Shown here: in pieces, positions 9,582 to 23,332 of the stretch
Numbering within the stretch: the stretch's first letter is position 1
How the letters are laid out: every line of letters starts with the position of its first letter
IMG/VR virus record: IMGVR_UViG_3300013125_000002
Strand: one strand, 5' to 3'
DNA length: 64,000 bases
Source of the DNA: a virus
Translations under genes and position numbers: made by a program
Notes under the pieces: model-generated
What the model saw: only the letters and a program-made list of their open reading frames with translations
Told to the model about the DNA's origin: nothing
The model's database searches: none

Positions 9582-9673
9582 TCGTCACCCCGATGATTTG
9601 GTTACAGTCTCAAAATCATCGGAGAGAGTCAAGCTGATCTTGTAGAGGGAGGATTCTAGAACTTATGAAAAAA

Positions 9674-10487: not shown

Positions 10488-10529
10488 GAGATCACCTGTG
10501 AACAGTTGGTCATGGTCGATTGTACCAGA

Positions 10530-10604
10530 TAGAGCGGGTCGGATTCGAACCGACACTGTCCGGAGTTTGAAGCCGGGGCCTCCTACCCGTTGGGCTACCG
10601 CTCC
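10530..10604 (-). tRNA. tRNA-Leu(CAA), short variable loop
   Basis: Cloverleaf; loop UUCAAAC. Confidence 0.8.
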
Positions 10605-10608
10605 ATAA

Positions 10609-10684
10609 TACCAGGGATGGGATTCGAACCCACACTGCCGAGATCCTTAGTCTCGTGCCTCCTACCAAGTTGGGCTACCCTGGC
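10609..10684 (-). tRNA. tRNA-Leu(AAG), short variable loop
   Basis: CGAGA-CUAAGGA-UCUCG. Confidence 0.85.
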
Positions 10685-10688
10685 ATAG

Positions 10689-10762
10689 TCGGGATGACTG
10701 GATTTGAACCAGTGACCTCTTGGACCCCATCCAAGCGTTCTTCCAGGCTGAACTACATCCCG
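10689..10762 (-). tRNA. tRNA-Pro(GGG)
   Basis: CUUGG-AUGGGGU-CCAAG. Confidence 0.9.
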
Positions 10763-10766
10763 TTAG

Positions 10767-10840
10767 TACCCCCGACGCGGCTCGAACGCGCACTTGATCT
10801 CCTTTTAGGGGAGAGCCTCTTCCTCTTGGGCTACAGGGGT
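10767..10840 (-). tRNA. tRNA-Leu(UAA), C33, short variable loop
   Basis: UCUCC-CCUAAAA-GGAGA. Confidence 0.75.
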
Positions 10841-10846
10841 AGAAAC

Positions 10847-10878
10847 TCCCACCTCTGCCAGCGATAACAGAGGTGGGA
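10847..10878 (-). terminator. 11-bp hairpin after Ro60 (terminator/processing site) carrying GUUAUC
   Basis: TCCCACCTCTG/CAGAGGTGGGA inverted repeat. Confidence 0.5.
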
Positions 10879-10885
10879 TCAGAAC

Positions 10886-12538
10886 TTACTGCTTGGCGAA
10901 TTCGCTGATCAGGTTAGGTGCTGCTGTGTCAAACCCGACCACATCCAGCATCCCTGCGTCATCAGGATCAGCAATCGTGAAGTTGTTGGCTACCATCCCC
11001 ACGACTACAAGCTTGGCTGGAATGCCCATCTTCTGCCGATATTGCTGAAGAGCCTGCACCGGCTGAATCTCCCCAGCCCACGTCTCCGAGTCAGTGTAGA
11101 TCTCGAAGAGGTCAACTGGGATCTTGTGCTTTGCTGCATCCAACATTGGCAGCGCACAATCAGTACCACCGAATGACAGCCTCTCCGTGTACCGACAGAT
11201 GTCGTCGAGCCTCATCGTGGGGCTGATCTTCAGCGTCGTGATTGCATTACCTTCGTACCCAAGGCCATGCAATGATGCTCTGCCGCTGGTGAAGCCCTTG
11301 ATCACCCACTGCTGCTCCACCCGTGCCCTCACCATCGCCATTGCTGACGAAGCTACTCGAGGTGTCAGTCCCATAACTCCTGCCACCATCCCACCACCCA
11401 TCGACCCCGAGACATCGAGTGCCAGGTAATGACGCTTGCCAGTCGGCTCCACAGCCCAGAAGGACACGTAGAACGACTCGTTGAGAGCGTCAACTACCTG
11501 CTGGACCAGGTCCCAGGTATTGCTGCCCCGAAGCCCATGACCCGCCGAGTAGGTCAGCATCGCTGTCAGCACCTGGATCGGATGCACCCTTGCCTTCTTG
11601 AGCTGCTCCAGATCGACCAGTCGCTTCGCCACCTCACCAACTGCTAATGCCATTGGCTTGAGCAGCCCAACCCGCGTCATGGTAGCCAGGTTCCGCAGAA
11701 GAGCCGTCAGCCCCAGGCTAGGAAGCATCGCCTCCCAGACCTCGGCGTGATTCAGCATCTCCGTTGGAATCGCTTCCCGAGGCAACCGGTAGTCCTGGAT
11801 CAGCTTGACCATCTCCTTGACGCTGGTGATGGTCTTGGCCTTCTCGAACGCCCAGATGACTCGAGCTGCCTCCGGCACTGCACCAACCTCTGGTAGGTCG
11901 TTCTCCTTGCCCTTGACCATCCAGCGGACGACCGTCTGGTGGTCTGAAGAGCCTGGCTTGACGTGTGCCAGCCTAAGCACGTCTCGATGTGACCAGCCAT
12001 CACGGGCCTGGTACTTGACCGTCTGGTACGCCACATCCTTCGCCTGTTGCTCGTTGTACCAGCGAGCAATCGCCCGACGGGCTCCTGGACCCCAGCCACC
12101 GAAGGCCTGCATCGCCTCGCAAAAGTGGAAGAGGTGTGTTCCGATCCGGCAGACCTTCGGCAGAGCCTGGTAGGCTGCTTGCTTGGTCTCGACATTCCCA
12201 AGCTTGGCTGCCATCGCCAATGCAAAGATCGCCGGATCGTTCTTCGGTGCTCTTCCTGCATCGGAGATGTCAGTGATCAACTTGACCAGGCGAACGCCAT
12301 CAGCCTTGATGCACCGCTCGATGGCCTTGGCGTTCTCCTTGGTGAGCTTACGCTCGGTGGCATAGTAGCTCCCACCCTCACTCCCGAGGATCAGGAACCG
12401 CTGTGCCTGCACCCAGATGTCGACTGGGAAAGTGACTCCCCCTGCCGAGTTCTCCACCATGTCGTTCTCACGACCTGGGATCACCTCGTTCTGCGGAGTC
12501 TGCCGACGGTTGACGTGGGACGAGTACTGAACGGGCAT
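10886..12538 (-). CDS. rsr: Ro60/TROVE-domain RNA-binding protein (Rsr)
   Basis: NSAGG..F...RFLILGSEGGSYY, GRAPKNDPAIFALA, KYQARDGWSHRDVLRLAH, ALLRNL, vWA DVSGSM, GGTDCALPM, TDSET, DVVGFD. Confidence 0.96.
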   Translation of the reverse strand: MPVQYSSHVNRRQTPQNEVIPGRENDMVENSAGGVTFPVDIWVQAQRFLILGSEGGSYYATERKLTKENAKAIERCIKADGVRLVKLITDISDAGRAPKNDPAIFALAMAAKLGNVETKQAAYQALPKVCRIGTHLFHFCEAMQAFGGWGPGARRAIARWYNEQQAKDVAYQTVKYQARDGWSHRDVLRLAHVKPGSSDHQTVVRWMVKGKENDLPEVGAVPEAARVIWAFEKAKTITSVKEMVKLIQDYRLPREAIPTEMLNHAEVWEAMLPSLGLTALLRNLATMTRVGLLKPMALAVGEVAKRLVDLEQLKKARVHPIQVLTAMLTYSAGHGLRGSNTWDLVQQVVDALNESFYVSFWAVEPTGKRHYLALDVSGSMGGGMVAGVMGLTPRVASSAMAMVRARVEQQWVIKGFTSGRASLHGLGYEGNAITTLKISPTMRLDDICRYTERLSFGGTDCALPMLDAAKHKIPVDLFEIYTDSETWAGEIQPVQALQQYRQKMGIPAKLVVVGMVANNFTIADPDDAGMLDVVGFDTAAPNLISEFAKQ

Positions 12539-12578
12539 GTGACCCCTCCTTACCGGCCCTCACTAAGAGAGCAAAAAT

Positions 12579-12643
12579 GATGAGCAAGTTGTTGCCGCTA
12601 GGGTGGCTTCACCAAAGAGGTAACCTAGAAGCTCCGGCCCATC
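12579..12643 (-). ncRNA. Y RNA-like RNA 1 (minimal), directly upstream of Ro60
   Basis: GAUGGGCCGG...GUUACC...CUUGCUCAUC Ro-binding-type stem. Confidence 0.7.
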
Positions 12644-12656
12644 GGTTCATCAGAAC

Positions 12657-12754
12657 AGCTAGCGCCTCAGCGAGGTTGGTGATCCTTGGAGTGCCTTTCG
12701 GCCATATCTCAGCATTGGTAGATAACCAAAGATCATTCGGCCAAGGAGCTAGCT
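12657..12754 (-). ncRNA. Y RNA-like RNA 2
   Basis: UUGGCCGAAUGAUCUUUGGUUAUC...CCAAGGAUCA...CUCGCUGAGG; GAAA hairpin. Confidence 0.7.
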
Positions 12755-12773
12755 ATTCCGATGAAGTAATCCT

Positions 12774-12803
12774 CATATGTTCACAGTACGTCAGACTTGT
12801 CAA
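12774..12803 (-). promoter_or_regulatory. Possible internal sigma70 promoter for Y RNAs and Ro60
   Basis: Perfect TTGACA at 12798-12803, weak -10. Confidence 0.35.
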
Positions 12804-12811
12804 CCACAAAG

Positions 12812-12885
12812 TGGCAGCAGCTGGTAACGATCCAGCAATCTTTCGGTTATGAGCCGAATGAGGAGACCATCTCCTCCCTGCTGCC
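12812..12885 (-). tRNA. tRNA(CAU), atypical (no U8, T-loop AUCGUUA)
   Basis: UUCGG-CUCAUAA-CCGAA; all four stems pair. Confidence 0.7.
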
Positions 12886-12890
12886 ATGGG

Positions 12891-12969
12891 TGCGAGGAGA
12901 GGGAATCGAACCCTCACGCCGAAGCGATAGCTCCTAAGGCTACTGCGTCTACCATTCCGCCATCCTCGC
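12891..12969 (-). tRNA. tRNA-Leu(UAG)
   Basis: Class II cloverleaf. Confidence 0.92.
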
Positions 12970-12970
12970 A

Positions 12971-13048
12971 TGGTACCCCCGGCAGGACTTGAACCTGCAA
13001 GTCTCTCGGTTCGTAGCCGAGTGTCCTAATCCATTAGACGACGGGGGC
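12971..13048 (-). tRNA. tRNA-Arg(ACG), CCA encoded
   Basis: CUCGG-CUACGAA-CCGAG. Confidence 0.92.
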
Positions 13049-13063
13049 GTAGGTAGTAGGCGG

Positions 13064-13135
13064 TTGGCCCAGTCGGATTTGAACCGACGACTCCCAGCTT
13101 GTAAGGCTAGTACTCTTCCACTGAGTTATGGGCCA
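13064..13135 (-). tRNA. tRNA-Val(UAC), replacement copy
   Basis: CUAGC-CUUACAA-GCUGG; UGGCCCA/UGGGCCA acceptor. Confidence 0.88.
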
Positions 13136-13511
13136 AAACACACTTCTGCATTCTGTACCTAGCAACTTCTAATCGATGAGCTTCAGTGCATCGCACGCAA
13201 CGGCATGGTGCGGTTTCACTGCGGTATCTGGTGTCAGTCCCATGTGGGGAAAGACGCTGTAGTCGAGTAGCCTCTTTGTGACACTCCCCACACAACACCA
13301 CACACTTCTTCAACTCCAACTCCCGTCGTTGTTTGGACCAAGACCAAATTCGGTGAGACACTTTCTTGGTCGGGTCTTTGTGATGCACCTCTAGTTGATC
13401 CTCTGATCCGCACCCAACACATGGACCATGCTCTTTAATCCATGCATTACGGTTTTCTGACTTCCATCGGAGTTGGTATTGTTTACGTTCCTCTGGATCT
13501 TTGTAAGGCAT
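13107..13511 (-). CDS. HNH homing endonuclease inserted in tRNA-Val
   Basis: MPYKDP...CVGCG...LEVHHKDP...ELKKCVVLCGECH...HGT..RY...CRC..C; ATG in anticodon stem of the split tRNA. Confidence 0.88.
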   Translation of the reverse strand: MPYKDPEERKQYQLRWKSENRNAWIKEHGPCVGCGSEDQLEVHHKDPTKKVSHRIWSWSKQRRELELKKCVVLCGECHKEATRLQRLSPHGTDTRYRSETAPCRCVRCTEAHRLEVARYRMQKCVLAHNSVEEY

Positions 13512-13538
13512 GCGCTCTTCCAGTTGAGCTAACCGCCC
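13501..13538 (-). pseudogene. 5' half of original tRNA-Val(UAC), split by the HNH insertion
   Basis: GGGCGGU UA GCUC AACUGGAA GAGC G CAUGC CUUACAA; matching acceptor strand ACCGCCU at 13058-13064. Confidence 0.8.
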
Positions 13539-13705
13539 ACAGGACAATCCTGCTGCACGAGTGAAGGCTTGATCTCAACCTTCACACGCTGATGGAGAGT
13601 GAGCTTCTGGCACTTGCCCAGACACTTCAGGGGTACCTGATCCTTGTCGCTCCATCGCTCCCATCTCTGTACATTCCCACACTTCGTACACCTGAACTCT
13701 TCCAT
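13529..13705 (-). CDS. 58-aa zinc-ribbon protein, weakly bL33-like
   Basis: AAGGAGAGG RBS; MEEFRCTKCGNVQRWERWSDKDQVPLKCLGKCQKLTLHQRVK...; below track cutoff. Confidence 0.55.
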   Translation of the reverse strand: MEEFRCTKCGNVQRWERWSDKDQVPLKCLGKCQKLTLHQRVKVEIKPSLVQQDCPVGG

Positions 13706-13720
13706 GATCCTCTCCTTGAG

Positions 13721-13794
13721 TGGTCGTGATAGGATTTGAACCTATGACCTTCTGGGTGTGATCCAGATGTGCTTCCAGGCTACACCACACGACC
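13721..13794 (-). tRNA. tRNA-Val(CAC)
   Basis: UCUGG-AUCACAC-CCAGA. Confidence 0.88.
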
Positions 13795-13799
13795 GATAG

Positions 13800-13872
13800 T
13801 GCTGCTGGGAGGAATTGAACCTCCGTGTGCCGATTCCGGAGACCGGTGCGTTGTCCACTACGCTACAGCAGC
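13800..13872 (-). tRNA. tRNA-Arg(CCG)
   Basis: Loop CUCCGGA. Confidence 0.85.
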
Positions 13873-13876
13873 TCAA

Positions 13877-13948
13877 TACCCCGACCCAGAATCGAACTGG
13901 GACTTGCGGTTTAGGAAACCGCCGTGATCTCCATTTCACTATCGGGGC
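13877..13948 (-). tRNA. tRNA-Arg(CCU)
   Basis: GCGGU-UUCCUAA-ACCGC. Confidence 0.88.
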
Positions 13949-13949
13949 A

Positions 13950-14021
13950 CACCACCGGAAGGAATCGAACCCTCGTCTTCCGGGTAGAAACCGGAGGCCC
14001 TGTCCATTAGACGACGGTGGC
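13950..14021 (-). tRNA. tRNA-Arg(UCU)
   Basis: UCCGG-UUUCUAC-CCGGA. Confidence 0.88.
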
Positions 14022-14026
14022 ACTAG

Positions 14027-14094
14027 AGGCGCCGGAGCGAGTTGAACGCTCCTCCACGGTTTTGCAGACCGTGTTGCTCCCGGAACGCAGCGCC
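14027..14094 (-). tRNA. tRNA-Cys(GCA), truncated D arm (68 nt)
   Basis: ACGGU-CUGCAAA-ACCGU; U73. Confidence 0.75.
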
Positions 14095-14098
14095 ATAC

Positions 14099-14169
14099 AG
14101 CTGGGCAAGGGATGATCTTAGGCATTGGTCAGATTAGAAGTCTGGTAACCTATGATCTTCGGCTCAGCT
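14099..14169 (-). ncRNA. Y RNA-like RNA 3 with Arg(UCU)-like anticodon hairpin
   Basis: AGCUGAGCCGAAGAUCAUAGGUUA-CCAGACUUCUAAUCUGA-...CCUAAGAUC..CUUGCCCAGCU. Confidence 0.78.
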
Positions 14170-14172
14170 CGG

Positions 14173-14240
14173 CAGGTCACCGGAGACTCGAACTCCGCAA
14201 GCTGGGTTTTGGAGACCCGGCCGTACCCTGTACGTGACCC
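14173..14240 (-). tRNA. tRNA-Trp(CCA), truncated D arm (68 nt)
   Basis: Loop CUCCAAA; D arm GUAC-AGG-GUAC; G73. Confidence 0.75.
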
Positions 14241-14387
14241 ACGATGACCTCTGATCGCACCCACTCAACGCTGCCCCTGCACCTCGGGAATACAGATGAG
14301 AAAGTAACGATCAACCGGTGTGCTCTGGCCGAGGTCTCCGCCAGCCGGTAGAGGCGCGGATGTCATGCCTGACTCGCCTTCCTCTAG

Positions 14388-14460
14388 AGCCGCCACCGAG
14401 AATCGAACTCGGCCTTTCAGTTTACCAAACTGATGTCCCGACCACGTGGACCTTGGCGGC
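14388..14460 (-). tRNA. tRNA-Thr(GGU)
   Basis: UCAGU-UUGGUAA-ACUGA. Confidence 0.88.
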
Positions 14461-14467
14461 AAAACTT

Positions 14468-14540
14468 TGGAGCCAGCGAGGATCGAACTCGCAACCTCTG
14501 CCGTGCAAAGGCAGCGCTCTCCCAATTGAGCTATGACCCC
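14468..14540 (-). tRNA. tRNA-Ala(UGC)
   Basis: G3:U70; CUGCC-UUUGCAC-GGCAG. Confidence 0.92.
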
Positions 14541-14547
14541 GAGTCAG

Positions 14548-14649
14548 TGGAATGGCCAGGAGTTGAACCCAGCTCCCCTTAGGCAGCTCCTGCAAGCCAC
14601 CCATCAGGGATCGCGCCAAGTGGTGCAGGCCACCCTCTCGCGACACCCC
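14548..14649 (-). ncRNA. tRNA-like RNA with T arm and acceptor but no canonical anticodon arm
   Basis: GGGGUG...CUGGG-UUCAACU-CCUGG-CCAUUCCA; internal repeat GGGUGGC(C/U)UGCA. Confidence 0.5.
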
Positions 14650-14656
14650 ATAACAG

Positions 14657-14728
14657 TGGGCACTACTGGAATCGAACCAGTGGTCTCCTGCGTGTCGAGC
14701 AGGTGTCTTTCCATTCGACCAAGCGCCC
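14657..14728 (-). tRNA. tRNA-Val(GAC), C33
   Basis: CCUGC-UCGACAC-GCAGG. Confidence 0.85.
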
Positions 14729-14731
14729 ATT

Positions 14732-14804
14732 TACTCCCAACGGGGTTCGAACCCGTGATCTCCGGCTTGAAAGGCCAGCGACTTGACCGCTCGTCCATGG
14801 GAGC
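14732..14804 (-). tRNA. tRNA-Glu(UUC)
   Basis: Loop CUUUCAA. Confidence 0.88.
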
Positions 14805-14808
14805 ATAG

Positions 14809-14880
14809 TGATCCTGGAGGGAGTCGAACCCTCATTTCCTGATCGAGAGTCAGGTTGCCTACCGTTAGCAAGACAGGACC
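14809..14880 (-). tRNA. tRNA-Glu(CUC)
   Basis: CCUGA-CUCUCGA-UCAGG. Confidence 0.85.
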
Positions 14881-14881
14881 A

Positions 14882-14957
14882 TGGAGCTGGCTATCGGACT
14901 TGAACCGATCACCTGCTGCTTACAAGGCAGCTGCTCTACCGGATGGGCTAAGCCAGC
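14882..14957 (-). tRNA. tRNA-Thr(UGU), CCA encoded
   Basis: Loop CUUGUAA. Confidence 0.92.
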
Positions 14958-14962
14958 ACGAG

Positions 14963-15034
14963 AGCCCTCATTCGGAATCGAACCGAATTCTCGGCCTTAC
15001 GAGAGCCGCGCGTCACCATTTACGCTTTGAGGGC
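14963..15034 (-). tRNA. tRNA-Thr(CGU)
   Basis: Loop CUCGUAA. Confidence 0.85.
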
Positions 15035-15069
15035 ATGACTCACCAACTTTGACCCCTTCGTTGGTGATC

Positions 15070-15150
15070 GCGCAGCCTTTACCAGTCTAGCCTTTCGGCA
15101 GCAAGCCGGACGAATCCGACACGATCTTGAGATCATCAGGGGCCCTGCGC
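15070..15150 (-). ncRNA. Unclassified multibranch small RNA in tRNA spacer
   Basis: GCGCAG/CUGCGC closing stem with UUCG and GAAA tetraloop hairpins. Confidence 0.5.
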
Positions 15151-15152
15151 AG

Positions 15153-15227
15153 TACCACCGAGAGGATTTGAACCTCCAACCTCCTCGACCTGAACGAGGC
15201 GCCTCTACCAAATTGGGCTACGGTGGC
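15153..15227 (-). tRNA. tRNA-Leu(CAG), short variable loop
   Basis: CCUCG-UUCAGGU-CGAGG. Confidence 0.85.
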
Positions 15228-15233
15228 ATGTAG

Positions 15234-15307
15234 TCGAGGTGGTCAGATTCGAACTGACGTGCTCCTGCTCCCGAAGCAGGCGAGGGACCAGACTCCTCTA
15301 CACCTCG
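15234..15307 (-). tRNA. tRNA-Pro(CGG)
   Basis: CCUGC-UUCGGGA-GCAGG. Confidence 0.9.
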
Positions 15308-15312
15308 ATAAG

Positions 15313-15384
15313 AGCGAGTGGAGGGAATTGAACCCTCGACCAACTGGTTGGAAGCCAGTGACTCTGCCACTGAGTTACACTCGC
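15313..15384 (-). tRNA. tRNA-Gly(UCC)
   Basis: ACUGG-CUUCCAA-CCAGU. Confidence 0.92.
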
Positions 15385-15393
15385 AAAGATCAA

Positions 15394-15465
15394 AGTGACC
15401 GGAGGGAGTTGAACCCTCTCTTCAGGCTTGGGAAGCCCGCGTGCCTCCGTGAACACCCCGGTCAC
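15394..15465 (-). tRNA. tRNA-Gly(CCC)
   Basis: Loop UUCCCAA. Confidence 0.85.
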
Positions 15466-15471
15466 AAGTTA

Positions 15472-15558
15472 GGGCCGCCAACGATGAGGACTGGACTGAT
15501 CTTTCAGTGAGTCGACGGCACTGATTGACCAGGGTTGATCTCATCATTGGCTAAGCCC
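15472..15558 (-). ncRNA. Unclassified rod-like small RNA in tRNA spacer
   Basis: GCCAAUGAUGAG/CUCAUCGUUGGC stem, internal bubble, UCAGUG/CACUGA apex. Confidence 0.5.
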
Positions 15559-15560
15559 AG

Positions 15561-15644
15561 CGGAGAGCCTGGGAATCGAACCCAGCGGGTCTTTCGGCCC
15601 TCCCGCGCTTCCAACGCGGTTGCGCACCTTGCTTCTCGCTCTCC
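15561..15644 (-). tRNA. tRNA-Ser(GGA), atypical D arm
   Basis: CCGCG-UUGGAAG-CGCGG; V arm GGCCGAAAGACC. Confidence 0.8.
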
Positions 15645-15652
15645 AAGATCAG

Positions 15653-15734
15653 CGGAAGGTGCAGGAATCGAACCTGCTGCGTCTTTCGGCGCTGATGGCT
15701 TCAAACCACTCCCGTACCTTACGGGTCACCTTCC
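15653..15734 (-). tRNA. tRNA-Ser(UGA), 6-bp D stem
   Basis: D arm CCCGUA-AGG-UACGGG; loop UUUGAAG. Confidence 0.8.
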
Positions 15735-15805
15735 AGCTAACCGATCTCCTCTGAGTCACAAAGAGTGTAGTCCTTGCGATTGACCATACTCAGCGAGATC
15801 GGCAA

Positions 15806-15877
15806 TGCAGCTGCCGGGAGTTGAACCCGGGCCTCAACCTTGGCAAGGTCGCATGCGGCCACCAACACTTCAGCTGC
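15806..15877 (-). tRNA. tRNA-Gly(GCC)
   Basis: Loop UUGCCAA. Confidence 0.82.
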
Positions 15878-15879
15878 GT

Positions 15880-15949
15880 AGCGGGAAAAGGAGTTGAACC
15901 TTGTCCTCTGGGTTATGAACCCAGCGTGCAGCCACTACACTATTCCCGC
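15880..15949 (-). tRNA. tRNA(CAU) Met/Ile2
   Basis: CUGGG-UUCAUAA-CCCAG (3 G-C pairs, initiator-like). Confidence 0.8.
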
Positions 15950-15951
15950 AG

Positions 15952-16023
15952 CGGGCACGAAGGGGATCGAACCCTCCTCGGCGGATCGACAGTCCGCTGG
16001 CCTCACCAGATGCCTACGTGCCC
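15952..16023 (-). tRNA. tRNA-Asp(GUC)
   Basis: GCGGA-CUGUCGA-UCCGC; G73. Confidence 0.85.
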
Positions 16024-16088
16024 ATTCACCGGCTTGTTCTGGGCTTAATAAGATGATCCCGGCAAACCGGCCAATCCAAGATCATCAG

Positions 16089-16170
16089 CGGAAGCTAGAC
16101 GAATCGAACGCCCGGTCTTTCGGCCGCCCTCGGGTTCGAGCCGAGTTAGGGACCCTCCCTGGTAGCTTCC
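16089..16170 (-). tRNA. tRNA-Ser(CGA), atypical D arm
   Basis: CUCGG-CUCGAAC-CCGAG; long V arm; G73. Confidence 0.8.
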
Positions 16171-16175
16171 AGAGC

Positions 16176-16274
16176 GCCGCCGCTTCATCGTCAAGGTCCT
16201 TGTCCAAGTTGATCAGACTCTTCCTCAGACCTCTTGGCCTTCAAAGGGCCGCGTTGGTCACGAATGAAGCAGCG
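16176..16274 (-). ncRNA. Unclassified structured RNA in tRNA spacer
   Basis: CGCUGCUUCAU/AUGAAGCGGCG closing stem. Confidence 0.45.
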
Positions 16275-16276
16275 AG

Positions 16277-16347
16277 TGGACCCACTGGGATTTGAACCCA
16301 GAATACAGCCATGCCGAGGCTGCGTGATCCCATTTCACTATGAGCCC
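16277..16347 (-). tRNA. tRNA-Ala(GGC), C33
   Basis: G3:U70; CAGCC-UCGGCAU-GGCUG. Confidence 0.85.
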
Positions 16348-16420
16348 GAGATGCTCCCCGCTTAGACTCACCTGCGCTGCTTTTGCCCGCTTCGGTAAAT
16401 CTGCGCTAGAGCAATGAGAT

Positions 16421-16549
16421 GAGTGAGCAAGGGGGAGAGTTGGATGTTTTAGTGTCCTTCCATTAGACGACAGAACCCGTGGGTCCCGCTGGGACTCGAA
16501 CCCAGATCACTCGCTTAGCAGGCGATAACCCAACTCAATCGGCCCACTC
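16421..16549 (-). ncRNA. YrlA-like Y RNA 4 with circularly permuted tRNA domain and GCU anticodon hairpin
   Basis: GAGUGGGCCGA..GUUA-UCGC-CUGCUAA-GCGA, T arm, closed acceptor, D arm, ..CUUGCUCACUC. Confidence 0.85.
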
Positions 16550-16551
16550 GG

Positions 16552-16623
16552 TGGAGTCGGAGGGAGTCGAACCCTCACCTCAGCGTTGCGAACGCCGCGT
16601 GCTCCCGCTAGCACTACGACCCC
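16552..16623 (-). tRNA. tRNA-Ala(CGC)
   Basis: G3:U70; loop UUCGCAA. Confidence 0.88.
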
Positions 16624-16630
16624 AAAAGAT

Positions 16631-16770
16631 CGAAGCAGGCAAGGGGTTGACCTGAGCGTTGAGATTGGATTCGAACCAACGTCTCCGGGTTTATTGGACC
16701 CGGCGCTCTACCTCTAAGCTACTCCTGTAGGGTTTGGCACAGGATAACTCAGATCATTCGGCTTGCTTCG
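16631..16770 (-). ncRNA. Y RNA-like RNA 5 with non-permuted D/anticodon/T tRNA module
   Basis: CGAAGCAAGCCGAA..GUUAUC..UAGCUUAGAGGUAGAGC-CCGGGUCCAAUAAACCCGG-GUUGGUUCGAAUCCAAU..CUUGCCUGCUUCG. Confidence 0.8.
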
Positions 16771-16771
16771 G

Positions 16772-16844
16772 GGCGGGGGAGGGGAGTCGAACCCCCTAAT
16801 GCCAGGGCCACAACCTGGTGCTTAGCCGTTTAGCTTCCCTCGCC
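16772..16844 (-). tRNA. tRNA-His(GUG) with G-1
   Basis: CCAGG-UUGUGGC-CCUGG; C73. Confidence 0.88.
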
Positions 16845-16849
16845 ATGAG

Positions 16850-16920
16850 TCGCTGGAGACAGAGTCGAACTGTCGTTTACCGGTTATCGGCCGATCGTTC
16901 TTCCGTTGAACTACCCAGCG
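16850..16920 (-). tRNA. tRNA-Ile(GAU), C33
   Basis: AUCGG-CCGAUAA-CCGGU. Confidence 0.82.
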
Positions 16921-16928
16921 ATCTTTAG

Positions 16929-16999
16929 CTCCGAGACCGGGATTCGAACCCAGAAGTCGTGGTTAACAGCCACGCATGATTCCATTTCATCATCTCGGA
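16929..16999 (-). tRNA. tRNA-Asn(GUU)
   Basis: CGUGG-CUGUUAA-CCACG. Confidence 0.88.
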
Positions 17000-17014
17000 A
17001 TGATCCTACACTAG

Positions 17015-17088
17015 CGAGTCGGACAGGATTTGAACCTGTGTCAGGTGGGTTAACGGCCCACTGCTCAACCAGACTGAGCTACCGACCC
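17015..17088 (-). tRNA. tRNA-Asn(GUU), second copy, C33
   Basis: GUGGG-CCGUUAA-CCCAC. Confidence 0.85.
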
Positions 17089-17091
17089 ATG

Positions 17092-17190
17092 CGATGGGCA
17101 AAGAATGATGCTGGTGCCTCCATAGGCGATGCCCCATAGATTGGGGCATTCTGGAATCGAACCGGATAATCCAACACCAACGGCTCATCG
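17092..17190 (-). ncRNA. YrlA-like Y RNA 6 (T arm, closed acceptor, D arm)
   Basis: CGAUGAGCCGUUGGUGUUGGAUUAUCCGGUUCGAUUCCAG-AUGCCCC/GGGGCAU-GCCUAUGGAGGC-CCAGCAUCA..UUUGCCCAUCG. Confidence 0.82.
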
Positions 17191-17193
17191 TAG

Positions 17194-17267
17194 TCGGGGA
17201 GACAGGATTTGAACCTGCGGCATCTAGCTCCCAAAGCTAGCGTTCTACCAGGCTGAACTACTCCCCG
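17194..17267 (-). tRNA. tRNA-Pro(UGG)
   Basis: CUAGC-UUUGGGA-GCUAG. Confidence 0.92.
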
Positions 17268-17289
17268 ATTTGCCCAAGTGAGCTTTACG

Positions 17290-17506
17290 TCGTGCATCTA
17301 CTCTAATCAGTGGATCTCAAGATGCAGCATGGGGTGATGTCTGGAGCTAGCACGACTTGCCGCCAGATCATGAGTCCCACCTAAGTCCTGAGTCACTGGA
17401 TCGGCCTTGGGCATCCGATCTCGACTCCGTGGTTGCGGAGTCTTCACTGAGCATCAACAGCCGGCCTTACCCTACCCTACCGGAGGTGTACCGGATCAGT
17501 TGATGC
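17290..17506 (-). ncRNA. Unclassified ~215-nt structured RNA (serial hairpins)
   Basis: TGCATCT/AGATGCA, GATCGG/CCGATC, GACTCCG/CGGAGTC, GCATCAAC/GTTGATGC inverted repeats. Confidence 0.45.
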
Positions 17507-17508
17507 AG

Positions 17509-17582
17509 ATCCCCCAGTTGGATTCGAACCAACGACCTTCGGGTTCAAAGCCCGACGCTACCGCCAGCTGAGCTATGGGGGA
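17509..17582 (-). tRNA. tRNA-Gln(UUG)
   Basis: U1-A72; loop CUUUGAA. Confidence 0.88.
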
Positions 17583-17587
17583 AGAAG

Positions 17588-17660
17588 TGGAGCGAAGTGG
17601 AGTCGAACCACTGTATCGGCATTTTCAGTGCCGCGCCTTGTCCGCATCGGCCATCGCTCC
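17588..17660 (-). tRNA. tRNA-Phe(GAA)
   Basis: CGGCA-CUGAAAA-UGCCG. Confidence 0.88.
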
Positions 17661-17665
17661 ATGTG

Positions 17666-17736
17666 TGGACCCGGAGTGAATCGAACACTCACCCACCGGT
17701 TATGAGCCAGCTGCTCGACCTTCGAGCTACGGGTCC
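17666..17736 (-). tRNA. tRNA(CAU) Ile2/Met
   Basis: Loop CUCAUAA. Confidence 0.85.
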
Positions 17737-17751
17737 ATCGACCATGATCAA

Positions 17752-17771
17752 CTATTCAGTTGTCAAGATCA
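17752..17771 (-). promoter_or_regulatory. boxA-like antitermination element (GATCTTGACAACTGAATAG)
   Basis: Resembles rrn/tRNA-operon boxA, located early in a long untranslated operon. Confidence 0.5.
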
Positions 17772-17834
17772 GCGAAGCACTGAGAAACGGTCTCAGCTCC
17801 CATCAGCAGGCAGCCTACTGATGCTTCCTTCTAG

Positions 17835-17906
17835 TTCCGGGACAAGGGTTCGAACCTTGATTGGCGGAGTCAGAGTCCGCTGTCCTGCCAATTGAACGAC
17901 CCCGGA
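17835..17906 (-). tRNA. tRNA-Gln(CUG)
   Basis: GCGGA-CUCUGAC-UCCGC. Confidence 0.9.
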
Positions 17907-18065
17907 TCAATGAATCAAATACCTCCAACCTCGACGTTGACTTTTACTCCAACGTCTCTTCCACCACCAGCGTTTTCTTGGTCCCCTTCCATGCACCTGA
18001 CCACAGTTGGAACAGCCACCTCTGAGAATGAACCGCATCCAACTTCGGTCAGGATCAGCCATCAG

Positions 18066-18137
18066 TGGGCTCGGACGGATTCGAACCGTCACCTCATCGG
18101 GTAAGAGCCGAGAATGCAGCCGTAACACCTCGAGCCC
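18066..18137 (-). tRNA. tRNA-Lys(CUU)
   Basis: Loop CUCUUAC. Confidence 0.85.
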
Positions 18138-18173
18138 AGTACTTCCACGCCTGGATCAGTTCCTCAAGCATCG

Positions 18174-18249
18174 TGGTGCCTCCGGCAGGACTCGAACCTG
18201 CGTCTCGATGGGTAAAAGCCATGTGCGCTGGCCGCTGCGCCACGGAGGC
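18174..18249 (-). tRNA. tRNA-Lys(UUU), CCA encoded
   Basis: Loop CUUUUAC. Confidence 0.88.
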
Positions 18250-18302
18250 AATAGCTCTCGAACCAACCGGTGCATTTGAGCTTGTGCATGATCTTGCCTC
18301 CG

Positions 18303-18374
18303 TGGGTGGTCTAGGAGTCGAACCTAGATTTGCGGGGTTACGGCCCGGTGCTCTACCAGTTGAACTAACCACCC
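18303..18374 (-). tRNA. tRNA-Tyr(GUA), C33, short variable loop; first tRNA of operon
   Basis: CGGG-CCGUAAC-CCCG. Confidence 0.8.
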
Positions 18375-18375
18375 C

Positions 18376-18411
18376 AAATGCGAAAAGGCCGCCAGGTTTC
18401 CCAGGCGGCCT
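18376..18411 (-). terminator. Intrinsic terminator/attenuator ahead of the tRNA operon
   Basis: AGGCCGCCUGG-GAAA-CCUGGCGGCCU followed by UUUCGCAUUU. Confidence 0.8.
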
Positions 18412-18438
18412 CTCGAGTTCTACTCTGCTTCCTCTCGA

Positions 18439-18591
18439 TTAGCCGCCTGGCGCTCCATGCTCGAGAGGATTCGGGTACTGCTTGGTACCCAGATCCACCG
18501 AGCTGACGGGGCGCGCACTAAACGCACACGTCCCGCGCCAGCTCTGAATGGCTGCCCTGGACAATGTGCGTTTGGCGGCTTCGCGTCTCAT
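18439..18591 (-). CDS. Attenuator leader peptide, 50 aa, all 20 amino acids, 40 distinct codons
   Basis: MRREAAKRTLSRAAIQSWRGTCAFSARPVSSVDLGTKQYPNPLEHGAPGG*; last codons CCAGGCGGC complementary to terminator 5' arm. Confidence 0.72.
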   Translation of the reverse strand: MRREAAKRTLSRAAIQSWRGTCAFSARPVSSVDLGTKQYPNPLEHGAPGG

Positions 18592-18599
18592 GATTCTTC

Positions 18600-18629
18600 A
18601 CTTGTGAACCATGTGGTCGCGTTTGTCAA
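18600..18629 (-). promoter_or_regulatory. Sigma70-like promoter of the leader/tRNA operon
   Basis: TTGACA at 18624-18629, weak -10; ATG about 9 nt past -10 (near-leaderless). Confidence 0.55.
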
Positions 18630-18946
18630 TCCCCTTTTTTGAACTTTCCGTTTGACTTGATCTTCGTAGTCGGGAGCGTCTGGTACAGCCCCAGCCGTAG
18701 GTAGCTCCAGCCCCGGCTATCACACACCCGACGAACACTGGAATGGCCCGCGGTCGCGAACCCTGCACACGGACGGGCTCGAACGACGTGAGCGAGAACG
18801 TGTATGCCGGGTGGCGTAGCGCCTCGCGCTTGGTTGCAAACCGTGCGGCGTCGGCAACGTTCTGGGTACAGCGCGGCCCGATACCCGTCCACTCTCTGAA
18901 GTAGCCGCTCCGCGGACATTTGAGAACCCAGTTCCGCTTGGTCATC

Positions 18947-19345
18947 TTACGCCTCCCTTTCCAGATCAGTCGGCTCTACACGCTGAGGCAGGACCGGCGA
19001 GATGAACAGACCCAGCGCGTTGCGTCGGCCATGCTCGGTCTCGTTGGCCTTGCTACGCTTCTGGATCTGGAAGTCCACCGGCAGACCTGAATGCTGCGAG
19101 AGGTAGAGTGAGATCGACGAGCACATGACCGACCACAGGGCGTTGTGCTGCTGGTGGCAGTCGGGGAAGAGCCGGTCGTACTCCTCGTCATCAAGGATCG
19201 CACGCACGTCCACATCACGGTAGTCGCGGCGCTCGAGGCAGGACCCCACGAGGAACACGCCGCCATTGAACGCCTGCGCGATCACACAGCACGCCTGATT
19301 CAGATTGAAGAAGTGTGGGGCTGGCAGCCAGTTTGCGCGTTCCAT
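18947..19345 (-). CDS. Minimal nucleotidyltransferase (Pol-beta superfamily)
   Basis: VFLVGS...RDYRDVDVR...PVDFQ = GS-xn-DxD...D. Confidence 0.7.
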   Translation of the reverse strand: MERANWLPAPHFFNLNQACCVIAQAFNGGVFLVGSCLERRDYRDVDVRAILDDEEYDRLFPDCHQQHNALWSVMCSSISLYLSQHSGLPVDFQIQKRSKANETEHGRRNALGLFISPVLPQRVEPTDLEREA

Positions 19346-19347
19346 GC

Positions 19348-19980
19348 TTACCTCTTTTTGGATATGCGACTGCCTAGCGCAGGCAAAAGCCGCAGGTTAC
19401 CGGTGACGAGTCGCCGCTCCAAATCCTTGGCTTCGACGAGCTCGTCAAGACGTTTCTTGACCGCCTCAATCGCTTTGCGGATCTCAAGCACCGTGCGCCA
19501 GGCCGCGTGAGAGTAGGGAATCACCGTCCCGCTCTCCCCCCAGAACTTTTTCGTGGTGTGGACTGGAGTACCGTCGTGCATGGTTGGCGGTTCTTCTGGT
19601 TCTGGGTCGCCGGCCGTGGTCCGAAAGAAGTCACGCTCGATCTGCCCGCCCTTGGTGTCTGCTATCTCGTGGCGAGACGCCGTAAACTCGAGCTGACTGG
19701 TATCGTCCTGGCCGTGGTAAGTGGGCGATCCGGAGATCATGATGATCTGGCGCCAGACGATTTCGCGGAGCGTCTCGGCCAGAGTGCGAGTTTCTCGCTT
19801 GCACTGATCTAGCGTGTCCGCCTCGGCACGCTGACCCTTCACCTCGCCGAAGAACAGCTTCTTGTCGCGATCGAAGAAAATCCGGATGCGACCGTTAACG
19901 GAATCGTAGATCGAGTCCACTTCATACGGCTTGAGCTTACGTGGCATGGTCGTCATCCTCGGGCGCGAGGCCCAACTCAC
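19348..19980 (-). CDS. Hypothetical protein
   Basis: 210-aa ORF in gene train. Confidence 0.55.
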   Translation of the reverse strand: MSWASRPRMTTMPRKLKPYEVDSIYDSVNGRIRIFFDRDKKLFFGEVKGQRAEADTLDQCKRETRTLAETLREIVWRQIIMISGSPTYHGQDDTSQLEFTASRHEIADTKGGQIERDFFRTTAGDPEPEEPPTMHDGTPVHTTKKFWGESGTVIPYSHAAWRTVLEIRKAIEAVKKRLDELVEAKDLERRLVTGNLRLLPALGSRISKKR

Positions 19981-20475
19981 GCAGCTGCTCCTGCCAATTC
20001 AGGAGCATCTCCATTCGCGAGCAGTCGTTGTTTTGCCCGTAGCTGTACCACCGTCCAGGCGCATCGGCTGGTACGCGTAGAGCAGAGCCAGCCGGCTGTG
20101 CCGAGCGGCAAGCTCCGGTTGGCGACGTGAGTGTCCTTCGCCGTGAAGGGCTTGCCGTCGGCTCGGGTAGGCCCGCAGGCCAGGCGCATGTGTAGAGATA
20201 GGCAACCTGCTGAGCCCCACGCAATGCTGGACGTGCTTCAATTGCTCCAAGAGTAGGGACGTACATCCGCTGGCCAATGAATCTCAGACACTCAACCAAC
20301 TTCTCACTGTCGACGTAGTTGGGGGGCACCTTCCTCACTTCTGTCTTGCCTCTATGATCTTTGCCCTCACCTTTGTTCAGAATCCAGTACTCATAGCTTT
20401 CCCAGATCGCTTCTGGCGAACAGGGAAGAGGAAAACATCGACAACAAAGGCTGGTTGATGCTGGCACCCGAGCAC

Positions 20476-22415: not shown

Positions 22416-22419
22416 GGCC

Positions 22420-22902: not shown

Positions 22903-23332
22903 CTCAGTCTCCGCTAGGCTTCTTCTGGGTCATGGAGGCGATGAAACTACGAATCTGAGCACCGCCCTTGGAGTCACTTCTGGCTGCTTCCTTCTCGAGC
23001 GTGTCCAGAAACATCGACATCACTCTTCGCTTGTTGTCCTCTCTATGCCTCTCCACGTTCTGGATCAGATTTTCAACCTGCTCTGCACGCTCCCGCTTCA
23101 CATCACCTGGTGTCCGCGTCGAGGTCAACTTGAGACCCTGCAGTCGCTCGTAGTCAACCCGAAGCTCCCGGAGCTTCTCAACCCCCCAGCTCCTGGTTCA
23201 TATCGTTCCAGCGCATCTCAAGAAGGAGCTTCAGGCTCTCGAAGCCATTGTTCCCGGCAAGAAGTGCCAGCCGAACATACTGCTCCGAGAGCCCAAACTT
23301 CTCGAAGAGCGGGATGATCTCAGAGAGCTTCA

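What the first reader, a model, noticed from the sequence alone, without database searches (positions are those of the whole stretch)
18376..18629. Pan-codon leader-peptide attenuator that would switch on the phage tRNA/Ro60/Y-RNA operon when any host tRNA is depleted
Seen: a TTGACA promoter, then a near-leaderless 50-codon ORF (18591-18439, not in the ORF track). It uses all 20 amino acids and 40 different codons, including all four Pro, all four Gly, both Lys and both Glu codons. Uniform-random expectation is about 34, and lower under biased codon usage. Its final codons CCA GGC GGC (18450-18442) are perfectly complementary to GCCGCCUGG, the 5' arm of a GAAA-loop intrinsic terminator (18411-18376) ending just before the first tRNA. 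This antiterminator pairs better than the terminator's own 3' arm, which has a U-U mismatch. Established: trp/his-type attenuation logic, where leaders sense one or a few amino acids. Inference: a ribosome reaching the stop codon masks the antiterminator and transcription stops. A stall at any upstream codon (anticodon nucleases such as PrrC, PARIS/AriB, VapC, retron effectors, or starvation) frees it and the 46-tRNA operon is transcribed. I know of no described equivalent general tRNA-integrity sensor.
Basis: partly seen in the sequence, partly recalled or inferred. Interest (0 to 1): 0.95.

Follow-up and report, generated by a model that had tools for sequence, protein, structure and literature searches.

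The report
All-codon leader switch before phage tRNAs
A tiny gene that uses nearly every kind of codon sits in an RNA on/off switch directly in front of a phage's complete set of tRNA genes, so the phage probably makes its own tRNAs when ribosomes are slowed by a shortage of any tRNA; I found no published account of this kind of control for tRNA genes.

Summary
The 50-codon ORF (18591-18439, minus strand), the GAAA-loop terminator (18410-18387 plus U-tract) and the competing pairing CCAGGCGGC:GCCGCCUGG are all present. I found the same module in 8 diverged lineages of uncultured freshwater and wetland phages, always about 10 nt before a large tRNA array that starts Tyr-Lys-Lys-Gln.

- **Antiterminator:** it pairs perfectly in all lineages, with one compensatory A-U to U-A swap. 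The terminator carries a mismatch or bulge in 7 of 8.
- **ORF:** it stays open, its indels are all in frame, and the stop keeps its position while varying (TAA, TGA, TAG).
- **Codon diversity:** 39-44 distinct codons in 50-54, above even a uniform-random null. It is specific to the reading frame and is kept up by codons lost at one position reappearing at another (combined p about 2e-7).
- **tRNA species sampled:** 34-41 of 43, more than random codon sets of equal size reach.

Amino-acid constraint is weak (dN/dS 0.3-1.0), and peptide conservation follows RNA hairpins.

Best reading: a ribosome-operated attenuator that reports decoding speed across nearly all tRNAs. Transcription, translation and the triggers remain untested. 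Unpublished notes of this scan report analogous leaders before tRNA arrays in other phages.

The parts
18624..18629 (-). -35-like hexamer TTGACA, preceded by an A-run and G-run (AAAAAAGGGGA)
   Evidence: TTGAC is invariant in 8 lineages. It lies exactly 32 nt before the ATG in 6 lineages, 30 or 33 nt in L013 and 44 nt in L085. In L085 and L017 it is intergenic, and in L085 it sits just after an upstream terminator. Promoter activity is inferred, not shown.
18601..18606 (-). Hexamer CACAAG at the -10 position, 17 nt after the -35 box; weak match to the consensus
   Evidence: Relatives carry TACACA, TACACC or CACAGG at the same spacing, and L014 has TACATA after 15 nt. The sigma-70 scan finds no promoter. 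If this box is used, the transcript starts 0-3 nt before the AUG (inference).
18439..18591 (-). Leader ORF: 50 sense codons plus TAA, with 40 distinct codons and all 20 amino acids
   Evidence: The frame is open in 8 lineages, with in-frame indels only and a stop at a fixed position that varies between TAA, TGA and TAG. Homologous peptides of 49-54 aa all end in PGG.
18574..18580 (-). R1 (AGCCGCC, codons 4-6), complementary to R2 and R4; possible anti-antiterminator
   Evidence: R1 pairs with R2 in the full-length minimum-energy fold of 5 of 7 lineages. It pairs with R4 in the RNAalifold consensus. The element is nearly invariant, shows no covariation, and is degenerate in L085.
18459..18555 (-). 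Three conserved hairpins inside the ORF: Ha 18555-18538, Hb 18535-18507, Hc 18503-18459 (the outer stem of Hc pairs two CUCGAG-type elements)
   Evidence: RNAalifold consensus with 88-95% of cells paired and one compensatory pair in each of Ha, Hb and Hc. The 231-nt fold has a z-score of -5.4. The most conserved peptide residues lie in these stems.
18441..18450 (-). R2: 5' strand of the antiterminator (CCAGGCGGCU), made of the last three sense codons plus the first base of the stop
   Evidence: It is a perfect complement of R3 in all 8 lineages. L013 has CCU here and a matching A in R3, which is a compensatory change.
18412..18438 (-). X2 (UCGAG, 18438-18434) and X3 (CUCGAG, 18417-18412): inner helix that extends the antiterminator hairpin
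   Evidence: Nested inside R2:R3, with 90% of cells paired. L017 and L085 keep the pairing in a shifted register.
18387..18410 (-). Intrinsic terminator hairpin: R3 GGCCGCCUGG, loop GAAA, R4 CCUGGCGGCC, with one U.U mismatch
   Evidence: dG -24.3 kcal/mol, z-score -4.4. The basal pair switches between G-C and A-U (3 against 3 sequences). The stem carries a mismatch or bulge at or next to the same position in 7 of 8 lineages.
18376..18386 (-). U-tract UUUUCGCAUUU
   Evidence: Read directly. Relatives have 6-8 consecutive U.
10528..18374 (-). Downstream genes presumed to be controlled: 45 co-oriented tRNA genes (42 distinct anticodons, starting Tyr, Lys-UUU, Lys-CUU, Gln) with a Ro60 gene embedded at 12538-10886
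   Evidence: ARAGORN, Rfam tRNA hits and Pfam TROVE plus vWA_Ro60. No terminator-like site on the minus strand inside the array. Co-transcription is inferred, and internal TTGACA boxes exist at 17766, 12803 and 10932.

Best explanation
This is a ribosome-mediated (leader-peptide) transcription attenuator that gates the phage's near-complete tRNA gene set.

**How it would work.** Transcription starts at or just before the AUG of a roughly 50-codon leader ORF. The last three sense codons (R2) can pair with the 5' arm of the terminator (R3) and form a 10-bp antiterminator, which an inner CUCGAG helix extends.
- If the lead ribosome keeps pace with RNA polymerase and reaches the stop codon, it covers R2 and X2. 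R3 then pairs with R4 and transcription stops about 10 nt before tRNA-Tyr.
- If the ribosome is delayed anywhere in the first 43-44 or so codons, R2:R3 forms first and the array is transcribed.

**What it would sense.** The ORF is written with close to the maximum variety of codons and samples 34-41 of the 43 tRNA species. A shortage of almost any tRNA would therefore delay the ribosome. The shortage could come from the host pool, from damage to it, or from the phage's own supply.

**Shown here:** the anatomy, its conservation, the covariation, the signatures of a translated frame, and the maintained codon diversity.

**Inferred:** the promoter and transcription start, translation, termination, the direction of the switch, and the physiological trigger.
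For: **1. Conserved module.** The same arrangement (TTGACA, then 32 nt, then ATG, a 49-54-codon ORF ending PGG-stop, two CUCGAG elements, the terminator, and about 10 nt to tRNA-Tyr) occurs in the window, L008/L015, L010, L013, L014, L017 and L085. It is also implied by peptide P0125. The upstream genes differ between lineages.

**2. Switch.**
- The transcript from AUG to R3 folds into R2:R3 in 7 of 7 lineages. The transcript extended to the U-tract folds into the terminator in 5 of 7. The two states differ by -6.1 to +1.4 kcal/mol. L085 also forms the antiterminator.
- The antiterminator is 100% paired in 7 of 7 aligned sequences and has one compensatory A-U to U-A change.
- The terminator is 85.7% paired. 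It has G-C to A-U covariation at its base and a conserved internal defect.

**3. Translated frame.**
- Five or six indels inside the ORF are all multiples of 3, unlike those in the flanks.
- The stop sits at a fixed site while varying between TAA, TGA and TAG.
- dN/dS is 0.3-1.0, so the peptide sequence itself is only weakly constrained.

**4. Codon roster.**
- The leaders use 39-44 distinct codons. Against a uniform null, P ranges from 0.0006 to 0.033. Against the phage's own codon usage, P is at most 0.0025.
- The other two reading frames show only 32-39 distinct triplets.
- Given the peptide, synonymous codon diversity is also high.
- Codon types lost at one column are regained elsewhere: 9/15, 5/7, 6/9, 4/10, 7/10 and 4/10, against null means of 2-4. 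Fisher's combined p is about 2e-7 under three different nulls.
- The codon sets cover 34-41 of 43 anticodons, against 32-34.5 for random sets with the same number of distinct codons.

**5. No other route to the first tRNAs.** There is no room for a promoter between the terminator and the first tRNA.
Against: - There is no expression data.
- No canonical -10 box is present, and the host is unknown, so tight transcription-translation coupling cannot be assumed.
- Each codon occurs mostly once, whereas classical attenuators use runs of regulatory codons. Sensitivity to mild shortage would therefore be low.
- The lineages share ancestry, so the per-lineage P values are not independent. Retention of all 20 amino acids is only marginal when tested alone (combined p about 0.065). 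L013 and L017 are individually non-significant in the regain test.
- Much of the ORF is constrained as RNA hairpins, which complicates codon-level inference.
- R1, the trp-like region 1, shows no covariation and is degenerate in L085.
- Internal TTGACA boxes could drive parts of the array independently.
Confidence: 0.55

Rival explanations
1. It is a translation-coupled attenuator, but codon-blind. The switch reports only whether a ribosome follows RNA polymerase at all. That could reflect overall translation capacity, the stage of infection, host shut-off or ribosome availability. The broad codon set would be incidental or serve another purpose.
For: All the structural and ORF evidence applies equally here. 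Single copies of each codon are a weak sensor compared with the codon runs of classical leaders. Codon adaptation of the leader is unremarkable, at the 16th percentile of real gene windows.
Against: This reading does not explain four results. Diversity exceeds even a uniform null in every lineage. The excess is specific to the reading frame. Lost codons are regained at other positions (p about 2e-7). Codon sets cover more tRNA species than equal-sized random sets.
Confidence: 0.17
2. It is an RNA-only switch or processing element. The roughly 215-nt structured leader would not be translated. Its alternative folds would respond to a protein, a tRNA or another ligand, or the 3' hairpin would simply stabilise or mark a processed leader RNA released by RNase P cleavage at tRNA-Tyr.
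For: The region has strong, conserved secondary structure with covariation in Ha, Hb and Hc, and a z-score of -5.4. Peptide conservation tracks the stems. dN/dS is high, at 0.3-1.0. An open frame of this length is not rare by chance in this composition, with P of 0.15-0.27 per sequence.
Against: The indels inside the ORF are all in frame. The start and stop positions are fixed while the stop codon varies. Triplet diversity is elevated in one frame only, in 8 of 8 lineages. There is no match to T-box or any other Rfam family.
Confidence: 0.1
3. It is an ordinary small protein gene with its own terminator. The tRNA array would be expressed by leaky read-through or from internal promoters, and the R2:R3 complementarity would be a by-product of the Pro-Gly-Gly C-terminus.
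For: Gene callers predicted the peptide in several metagenomes. PGG is invariant. Internal TTGACA boxes exist within the array.
Against: - Amino-acid constraint is weak and there is no protein family match.
- The CCA to CCU change in L013 is synonymous, yet it is matched by U to A in R3.
- The terminator is kept imperfect while the antiterminator is kept perfect.
- The first four tRNAs have no promoter of their own.
- The module always accompanies a tRNA array, whatever the upstream gene.
Confidence: 0.08

Closest known systems
Leader-peptide attenuators of enterobacterial amino-acid operons (trpL, hisL, leuL, pheL; the multivalent thrL and ilvL)
   Same: A short ORF lies in the 5' leader. An intrinsic terminator stands before the first regulated gene. 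A mutually exclusive antiterminator has its 5' strand at the end of the ORF, so ribosome position decides between the two folds. A possible region 1 (R1) is complementary to region 2. (Textbook mechanism; anatomy tested.)
   Different: The regulated genes are tRNAs rather than biosynthetic enzymes. There is no run of one or a few regulatory codons. Instead the leader uses 39-44 different codons, mostly once each, covering 34-41 of 43 tRNA species. The element is carried by a phage. It has no sequence or structure match to the Rfam leader families. The start may be leaderless.
Stall-sensing uORF attenuators that respond to general translation stress (mycobacterial whiB7 leader; erm, cat and msr antibiotic-inducible leaders)
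   Same: A stalled ribosome on a short upstream ORF remodels the leader RNA and relieves termination. The signal is slowed translation in general rather than one amino acid (own knowledge; whiB7 paper PMC10274678 listed, not read in detail).
   Different: Those leaders depend on particular arrest peptides, on drugs, or on codons for one amino acid, and they control resistance or stress genes. Here there is no evidence for an arrest peptide. The distinctive feature is a maintained codon roster placed upstream of tRNA genes.
T-box riboswitches
   Same: They are a terminator/antiterminator switch that reports on tRNA status and controls translation-related genes.
   Different: A T-box binds one specific uncharged tRNA directly and needs no translation. 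Here I found no Rfam T-box match in the scan. I did not examine a specifier loop or the T-box bulge by eye. The element also shows the signatures of a translated frame.
Unpublished notes of this scan: leader ORF plus switch before tRNA arrays in other phages (e1-5633119, e1-4047519, e1-3450868, e1-5656129 and others)
   Same: They describe the same logic: a mini-ORF whose codons mirror the downstream tRNA array, wired to a terminator/antiterminator pair. One of them is an all-amino-acid leader in a freshwater T4-like phage.
   Different: They are on other genomes and, by sequence look-up, are not homologous to this module. They are AI notes that I did not re-test. In this case the array is a full tRNA set, so the roster is nearly all codons.

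Membership tests
Ribosome-mediated (leader-peptide) transcription attenuators | A short ORF in the leader, immediately upstream of the regulated genes, maintained as a reading frame | tested here: met
   A 49-54-codon ORF is present in 8 lineages. Indels are in frame only, and the start and stop positions are fixed while the stop codon varies.
Ribosome-mediated (leader-peptide) transcription attenuators | An intrinsic terminator (GC-rich hairpin plus U-tract) between the leader ORF and the first regulated gene | tested here: met
   The hairpin has dG -24.3 kcal/mol and z-score -4.4. The U-tract has 4-8 U, and tRNA-Tyr starts about 10 nt later. The basal pair covaries.
Ribosome-mediated (leader-peptide) transcription attenuators | A mutually exclusive antiterminator that a ribosome at the end of the ORF would mask | tested here: met
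   R2 is the last three sense codons. R2:R3 is 100% paired, with one compensatory change. It is the minimum-energy fold before R4 is transcribed in 7 of 7 lineages.
Ribosome-mediated (leader-peptide) transcription attenuators | Regulatory codons matched to what the operon supplies (classically, runs of codons for the cognate amino acid) | tested here: inconclusive
   There are no codon runs. Instead a near-maximal codon roster covers 34-41 of 43 tRNA species, matching a full tRNA set downstream. This fits the logic of the family but is not its classical form.
Ribosome-mediated (leader-peptide) transcription attenuators | Demonstrated translation of the leader and stall-dependent read-through | not testable with these tools
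Rfam leader families (Trp, His, Leu, Thr, Phe leaders and similar) | A match to the family covariance model | tested here: not met
   cmscan of 9000-24000 at E <= 1 returns no hit in 18376-18640.
T-box riboswitch | A match to the Rfam T-box model (Stem I specifier, T-box antiterminator bulge) | tested here: not met
   No T-box hit at E <= 1.
Sigma-70 promoter | A -35 box, a 16-18 nt spacer and a -10 box of the TAnnnT type | tested here: inconclusive
   The -35 TTGACA is perfect and conserved. The hexamer at the -10 position is CACAAG, and TACACA or TACACC in relatives. The consensus scan finds nothing.

The most novel reading that the evidence does not exclude
The leader is a general tRNA-integrity alarm and part of a counter-defence. 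When a host anticodon nuclease, or any other attack on the tRNA pool, slows decoding of any one codon, the switch opens. The phage then expresses a complete replacement tRNA set, headed by Tyr, Lys, Lys and Gln, together with Ro60 and Y RNAs. As decoding recovers, the switch closes again by feedback.
Probability: 0.2. Interest if true: 0.95.

Novelty: new variant of a known kind. Interest (0 to 1): 0.82.

Why it matters
**Regulation of viral tRNA genes.** Large tRNA arrays are common in big phages, and they are increasingly linked to codon-usage mismatch and to escape from tRNA-cleaving host defences. How their expression is controlled is essentially unknown. A leader that reads out decoding speed across almost all tRNA species would extend trp-type attenuation in two ways. 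It would move from sensing one amino acid to sensing the whole tRNA pool, and it would give the first regulatory logic for viral tRNA genes.

**Testability.** The idea is directly testable with a roughly 260-bp cassette in reporter assays.

**Evolutionary signature.** The codon-relocation pattern, in which the set of codons is conserved while their positions are not, is an unusual mode of selection. It could be used to search for similar sensors elsewhere.

**Possible tool.** The cassette could also serve as a compact reporter of tRNA-pool health.

Tried and rejected
- **Cultured phages:** BLASTN of the region against 50,697 phage records gave only one irrelevant short hit. The terminase is at most 32% identical to any cultured phage, so there is no host clue.
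- **Neighbouring proteins as probes:** single-protein scans of viral contigs with the three upstream proteins found nothing. Homologues of the 132-aa neighbour are numerous but sit in unrelated contexts without tRNA arrays.
- **Identical copies:** L001-L003 are identical to the window and uninformative.
- **Loose DNA pattern:** the R2...R3 pattern returned mostly chance matches. Filtering with nhmmer kept only L085, and L109 is a chance palindrome.
- **Bacterial genomes:** no copy was found, so there is no prophage and no host.
- **Spurious profile hits:** large repeat proteins P0124 and P0126-P0128 matched the peptide profile but are spurious.
- **All 20 amino acids:** retention tested alone is only marginal (combined p about 0.065).
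- **Slow codons:** the leader's codon adaptation is not unusual, and its preference for U-ending wobble codons is only a mild trend.
- **pyrBI-type mechanism** (a ribosome physically blocking the terminator): rejected, because the ORF ends 28 nt or more before R3.
- **Literature:** four searches found no description of leader-peptide control of tRNA genes.

Full report
**What is there.** On the minus strand the window reads, in order, as follows.
- An A-run and G-run followed by TTGACA (18629-18624), then 32 nt.
- An ATG (18591) opening a 50-codon ORF that ends in CCA GGC GGC TAA (stop at 18441-18439).
- UCGAG (18438-18434) and CUCGAG (18417-18412).
- The hairpin GGCCGCCUGG-GAAA-CCUGGCGGCC (18410-18387), followed by UUUUCGCAUUU.
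- tRNA-Tyr at 18374, six bases further on.

tRNA-Tyr is the first of 45 co-oriented tRNA genes with 42 distinct anticodons. A Ro60 gene is embedded in the array. The window comes from a phage: it has a large terminase, a DNA polymerase, UvsX and SbcC. The contig is an uncultured freshwater metagenome assembly of about 145-152 kb. No whole genome is held for it.

**Checking the observation.** The ORF has 40 distinct codons among 50 and all 20 amino acids.
- A uniform null gives 34.3 +/- 2.3 distinct codons (P = 0.011). The phage's own codon usage gives 31.2 +/- 2.4 (P = 0.0009).
- No 50-codon window of real genes reaches 40 (0 of 1179).
- Among all 78 ATG ORFs of 45-60 codons in six frames, this one ranks first.
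- The hairpin alone has dG -24.3 kcal/mol. With the upstream 40 nt added, the minimum-energy fold switches to CCAGGCGGCU:GGCCGCCUGG with an inner UCGAG:CUCGA helix, at -32.2 kcal/mol.

**Relatives.** The exact terminator sequence retrieved L008, a viral contig with a syntenic 42-tRNA array and a diverged copy of the whole leader. Further searches added more lineages:
- profile searches with the peptide;
- a metagenome scan;
- nhmmer filtering of a loose pattern scan.

These gave L010 (identical in L009, L011, L012, L016, L137 and L138), L013, L014, L015, L017 and L085, plus peptide P0125 for which no DNA is held.

In every case the module sits about 10 nt before an array that begins Tyr, Lys-UUU, Lys-CUU, Gln. 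ARAGORN does not call the Tyr gene in L013 and L017. The genes upstream differ between lineages. They are a 115-aa ORF here, a Lockin-family protein in L008, a DnaJ-domain protein in L010 and a 130-aa protein in L017. In L085 an intrinsic terminator lies upstream. The module therefore travels with the array, not with the upstream gene.

**The RNA switch.** I aligned seven modules (A4).
- RNAalifold on its own predicts three hairpins inside the ORF (Ha, Hb, Hc) and the antiterminator R2:R3 with X2:X3 nested inside it.
- The antiterminator is paired in 100% of cells. It carries one compensatory change: L013 has CCU in R2 and A in R3, where the others have CCA and U.
- The terminator is paired in 85.7% of cells. 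Its basal pair covaries between G-C and A-U (3 against 3 sequences).
- The terminator has an internal defect at or next to one position: U.U in the window and L008, C.A in L010 and L014, a bulged A in L017 and U.C in L085. Only L013 has a perfect stem.
- Transcripts ending at R3 fold into the antiterminator in 7 of 7 lineages. Transcripts ending at the U-tract fold into the terminator plus R1:R2 in 5 of 7. The two states lie within -6.1 to +1.4 kcal/mol of each other.

This is the signature of a selected bistable element in which the antiterminator is favoured unless something blocks R2.

**Is the ORF translated?**
- The frame is open in all eight lineages, although chance alone would give that in 15-27% of single sequences.
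- The five or six indels inside the ORF are all multiples of three, while indels in the flanks are 2, 3, 4 or 5 nt.
- The stop codon keeps its position directly after R2 but varies between TAA, TGA and TAG.
- The ATG lies exactly 32 nt after TTGACA in six lineages, even though the intervening sequence is poorly conserved.
- dN/dS is 0.3-1.0, and variable sites fall at codon positions 1, 2 and 3 in 27, 19 and 29 of 47 columns.

The amino-acid sequence is therefore only weakly constrained. The best-conserved residues (W, F, R, G and the final PGG) lie in RNA stems or in R2. This fits a leader that must be translated but whose product hardly matters.

**The codon roster.**
- Distinct codons per total are 40/50, 44/54, 41/50, 40/51, 40/51, 43/52 and 39/50 in the seven distinct lineages, and 43/54 in L015, which is close to L008. 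All 20 amino acids are present in every lineage except L014.
- All of these exceed the uniform null, which is the most generous independent-draw null (P from 0.0006 to 0.033).
- The other two reading frames of the same DNA give only 32-39 distinct triplets, so the excess is frame-specific.
- Given the peptide, synonymous choice is also more varied than expected.

Because the lineages are related, I also conditioned on the conserved codons. Private changes raise diversity more than random replacements do. Codon types lost from their consensus column reappear at other columns far more often than expected: 9/15, 5/7, 6/9, 4/10, 7/10 and 4/10, against null means of 2-4. Fisher's combined p is about 2e-7 under Hamming-matched, composition-weighted and usage-weighted nulls. 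In the window, for example, AAG, UUG and CUG are cyclically swapped among three columns relative to the other lineages.

Finally, the codon sets hit the cognate codons of 37, 38, 37, 34, 35 and 41 of 43 anticodons. Random sets with the same number of distinct codons reach 32-34.5 (P = 0.003, 0.025, 0.008, 0.19, 0.07 and below 5e-5). Both Lys and both Glu codons, which are read by separate tRNAs, occur in all lineages. Pairs ending in C or U, which share one tRNA, are usually represented by a single codon. Selection thus appears to act on which tRNAs are sampled.

**Mechanism.** I apply established attenuation logic, which I cite as knowledge and did not test here. A ribosome at or near the stop codon covers R2 and X2, so R3 pairs with R4 and transcription ends before tRNA-Tyr. 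A ribosome delayed at any of the first 43-44 or so codons leaves R2 free. R2:R3 then forms before R4 is made, and the array is transcribed.

R1 (AGCCGCC, codons 4-6) could act as a trp-like region 1. It shows no covariation and is degenerate in L085, so I treat it as optional.

Two physiological readings fit equally well. Alternatively it gives negative feedback on the phage's own tRNA supply. The window's array lacks tRNA-Ser(GCU) by ARAGORN, yet the leader uses AGC and AGU. At least those codons would therefore report on host tRNA.

**Caveats.**
- There is no expression evidence.
- No recognisable -10 box is present.
- The host is unknown.
- Single codons make weak sensors.
- The P values are not independent across related lineages.
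- Strong RNA-level constraints overlap the ORF.
- Internal TTGACA boxes could drive parts of the array.

**Comparison and novelty.** The element works like the trp, his, thr and ilv leader-peptide attenuators. It is not a member of any Rfam leader family, nor a T-box. It differs from them in three ways: it regulates tRNA genes, it uses a nearly all-codon roster instead of codon runs, and it is carried by a phage.

Four literature searches found no description of such control. Unpublished notes of this scan report analogous, non-homologous leaders before tRNA arrays in other phages. I did not re-test those notes, so they are context and not evidence.

I class this as a new variant of a known kind. 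My confidence in the attenuator-with-roster reading is about 0.55, and my interest score is 0.82.

Noticed in passing
window 18503-18412 (minus strand); the same elements in L008, L010, L013, L014, L017 and L085: The palindrome CUCGAG, or UUCGAG, occurs three to four times per module. X0 lies in the Ser-Ser-Arg codons, X1 in the Leu-Glu codons, X2 just after the stop and X3 before R3. X0:X1 and X2:X3 pair in the consensus fold, but any copy could pair with any other. A protein-binding role is not excluded.
   Followed up: partly
window 18626-18945 (minus strand): Gene callers take the 115-aa frame (18945-18598). A 97-aa frame (18919-18626) instead ends in KKGD, with its stop codon lying inside TTGACA. 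The upstream genes of L008 (ending KKGG) and L010 (ending KKEG) finish in the same way. The conserved block therefore starts at the A-run, and the true end of the upstream gene in this window is uncertain.
   Followed up: partly
window 18374-17834; L008, L010, L014 and L085 array heads: The array starts Tyr(GUA), Lys(UUU), Lys(CUU), Gln(CUG) in each lineage where the first gene is called (L015, close to L008, has Tyr followed by Asp). From my own knowledge, tRNA-Lys and tRNA-Tyr are the classical targets of anticodon nucleases such as PrrC and colicin E5.
   Followed up: no
window 10528-18374 compared with L008 and L009-L011: ARAGORN finds no tRNA-Ser(GCU) in the window's array, although the relatives have one and the leader uses AGC and AGU. 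Rfam gives only a weak YrlA hit there (E = 0.95).
   Followed up: partly
window 12803-12775 and 6463-6429 (minus strand): Two further TTGACA boxes have a TA-type or ACATAT hexamer exactly 17 nt downstream. One is TTGACA-N17-ACATAT, ahead of the Y-RNA and Ro60 segment. The other is A-run-TTGACA-N17-TACGGT. These may be internal or additional promoters of the same class.
   Followed up: partly
window 21291-22415 (minus strand); L001 1-1055: The 374-aa protein three genes upstream carries a precomputed Pfam hit to the AcrVA2-like family (PF26125), which contains anti-CRISPR-related proteins.
   Followed up: no
L009-L012, e.g. L010 3627-4247: ARAGORN reports a 620-nt permuted tmRNA spanning several tRNA genes in the L010 lineage. 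This is probably a false call caused by the dense tRNA array.
   Followed up: no
L085 60-110: In the most distant lineage a GC-rich hairpin plus T-run, the terminator of the upstream unit, directly abuts the TTGACA box. Here the ORF seems to start at a GTG preceded by an AAGAGG Shine-Dalgarno-like motif, not at the leaderless-type spacing.
   Followed up: partly
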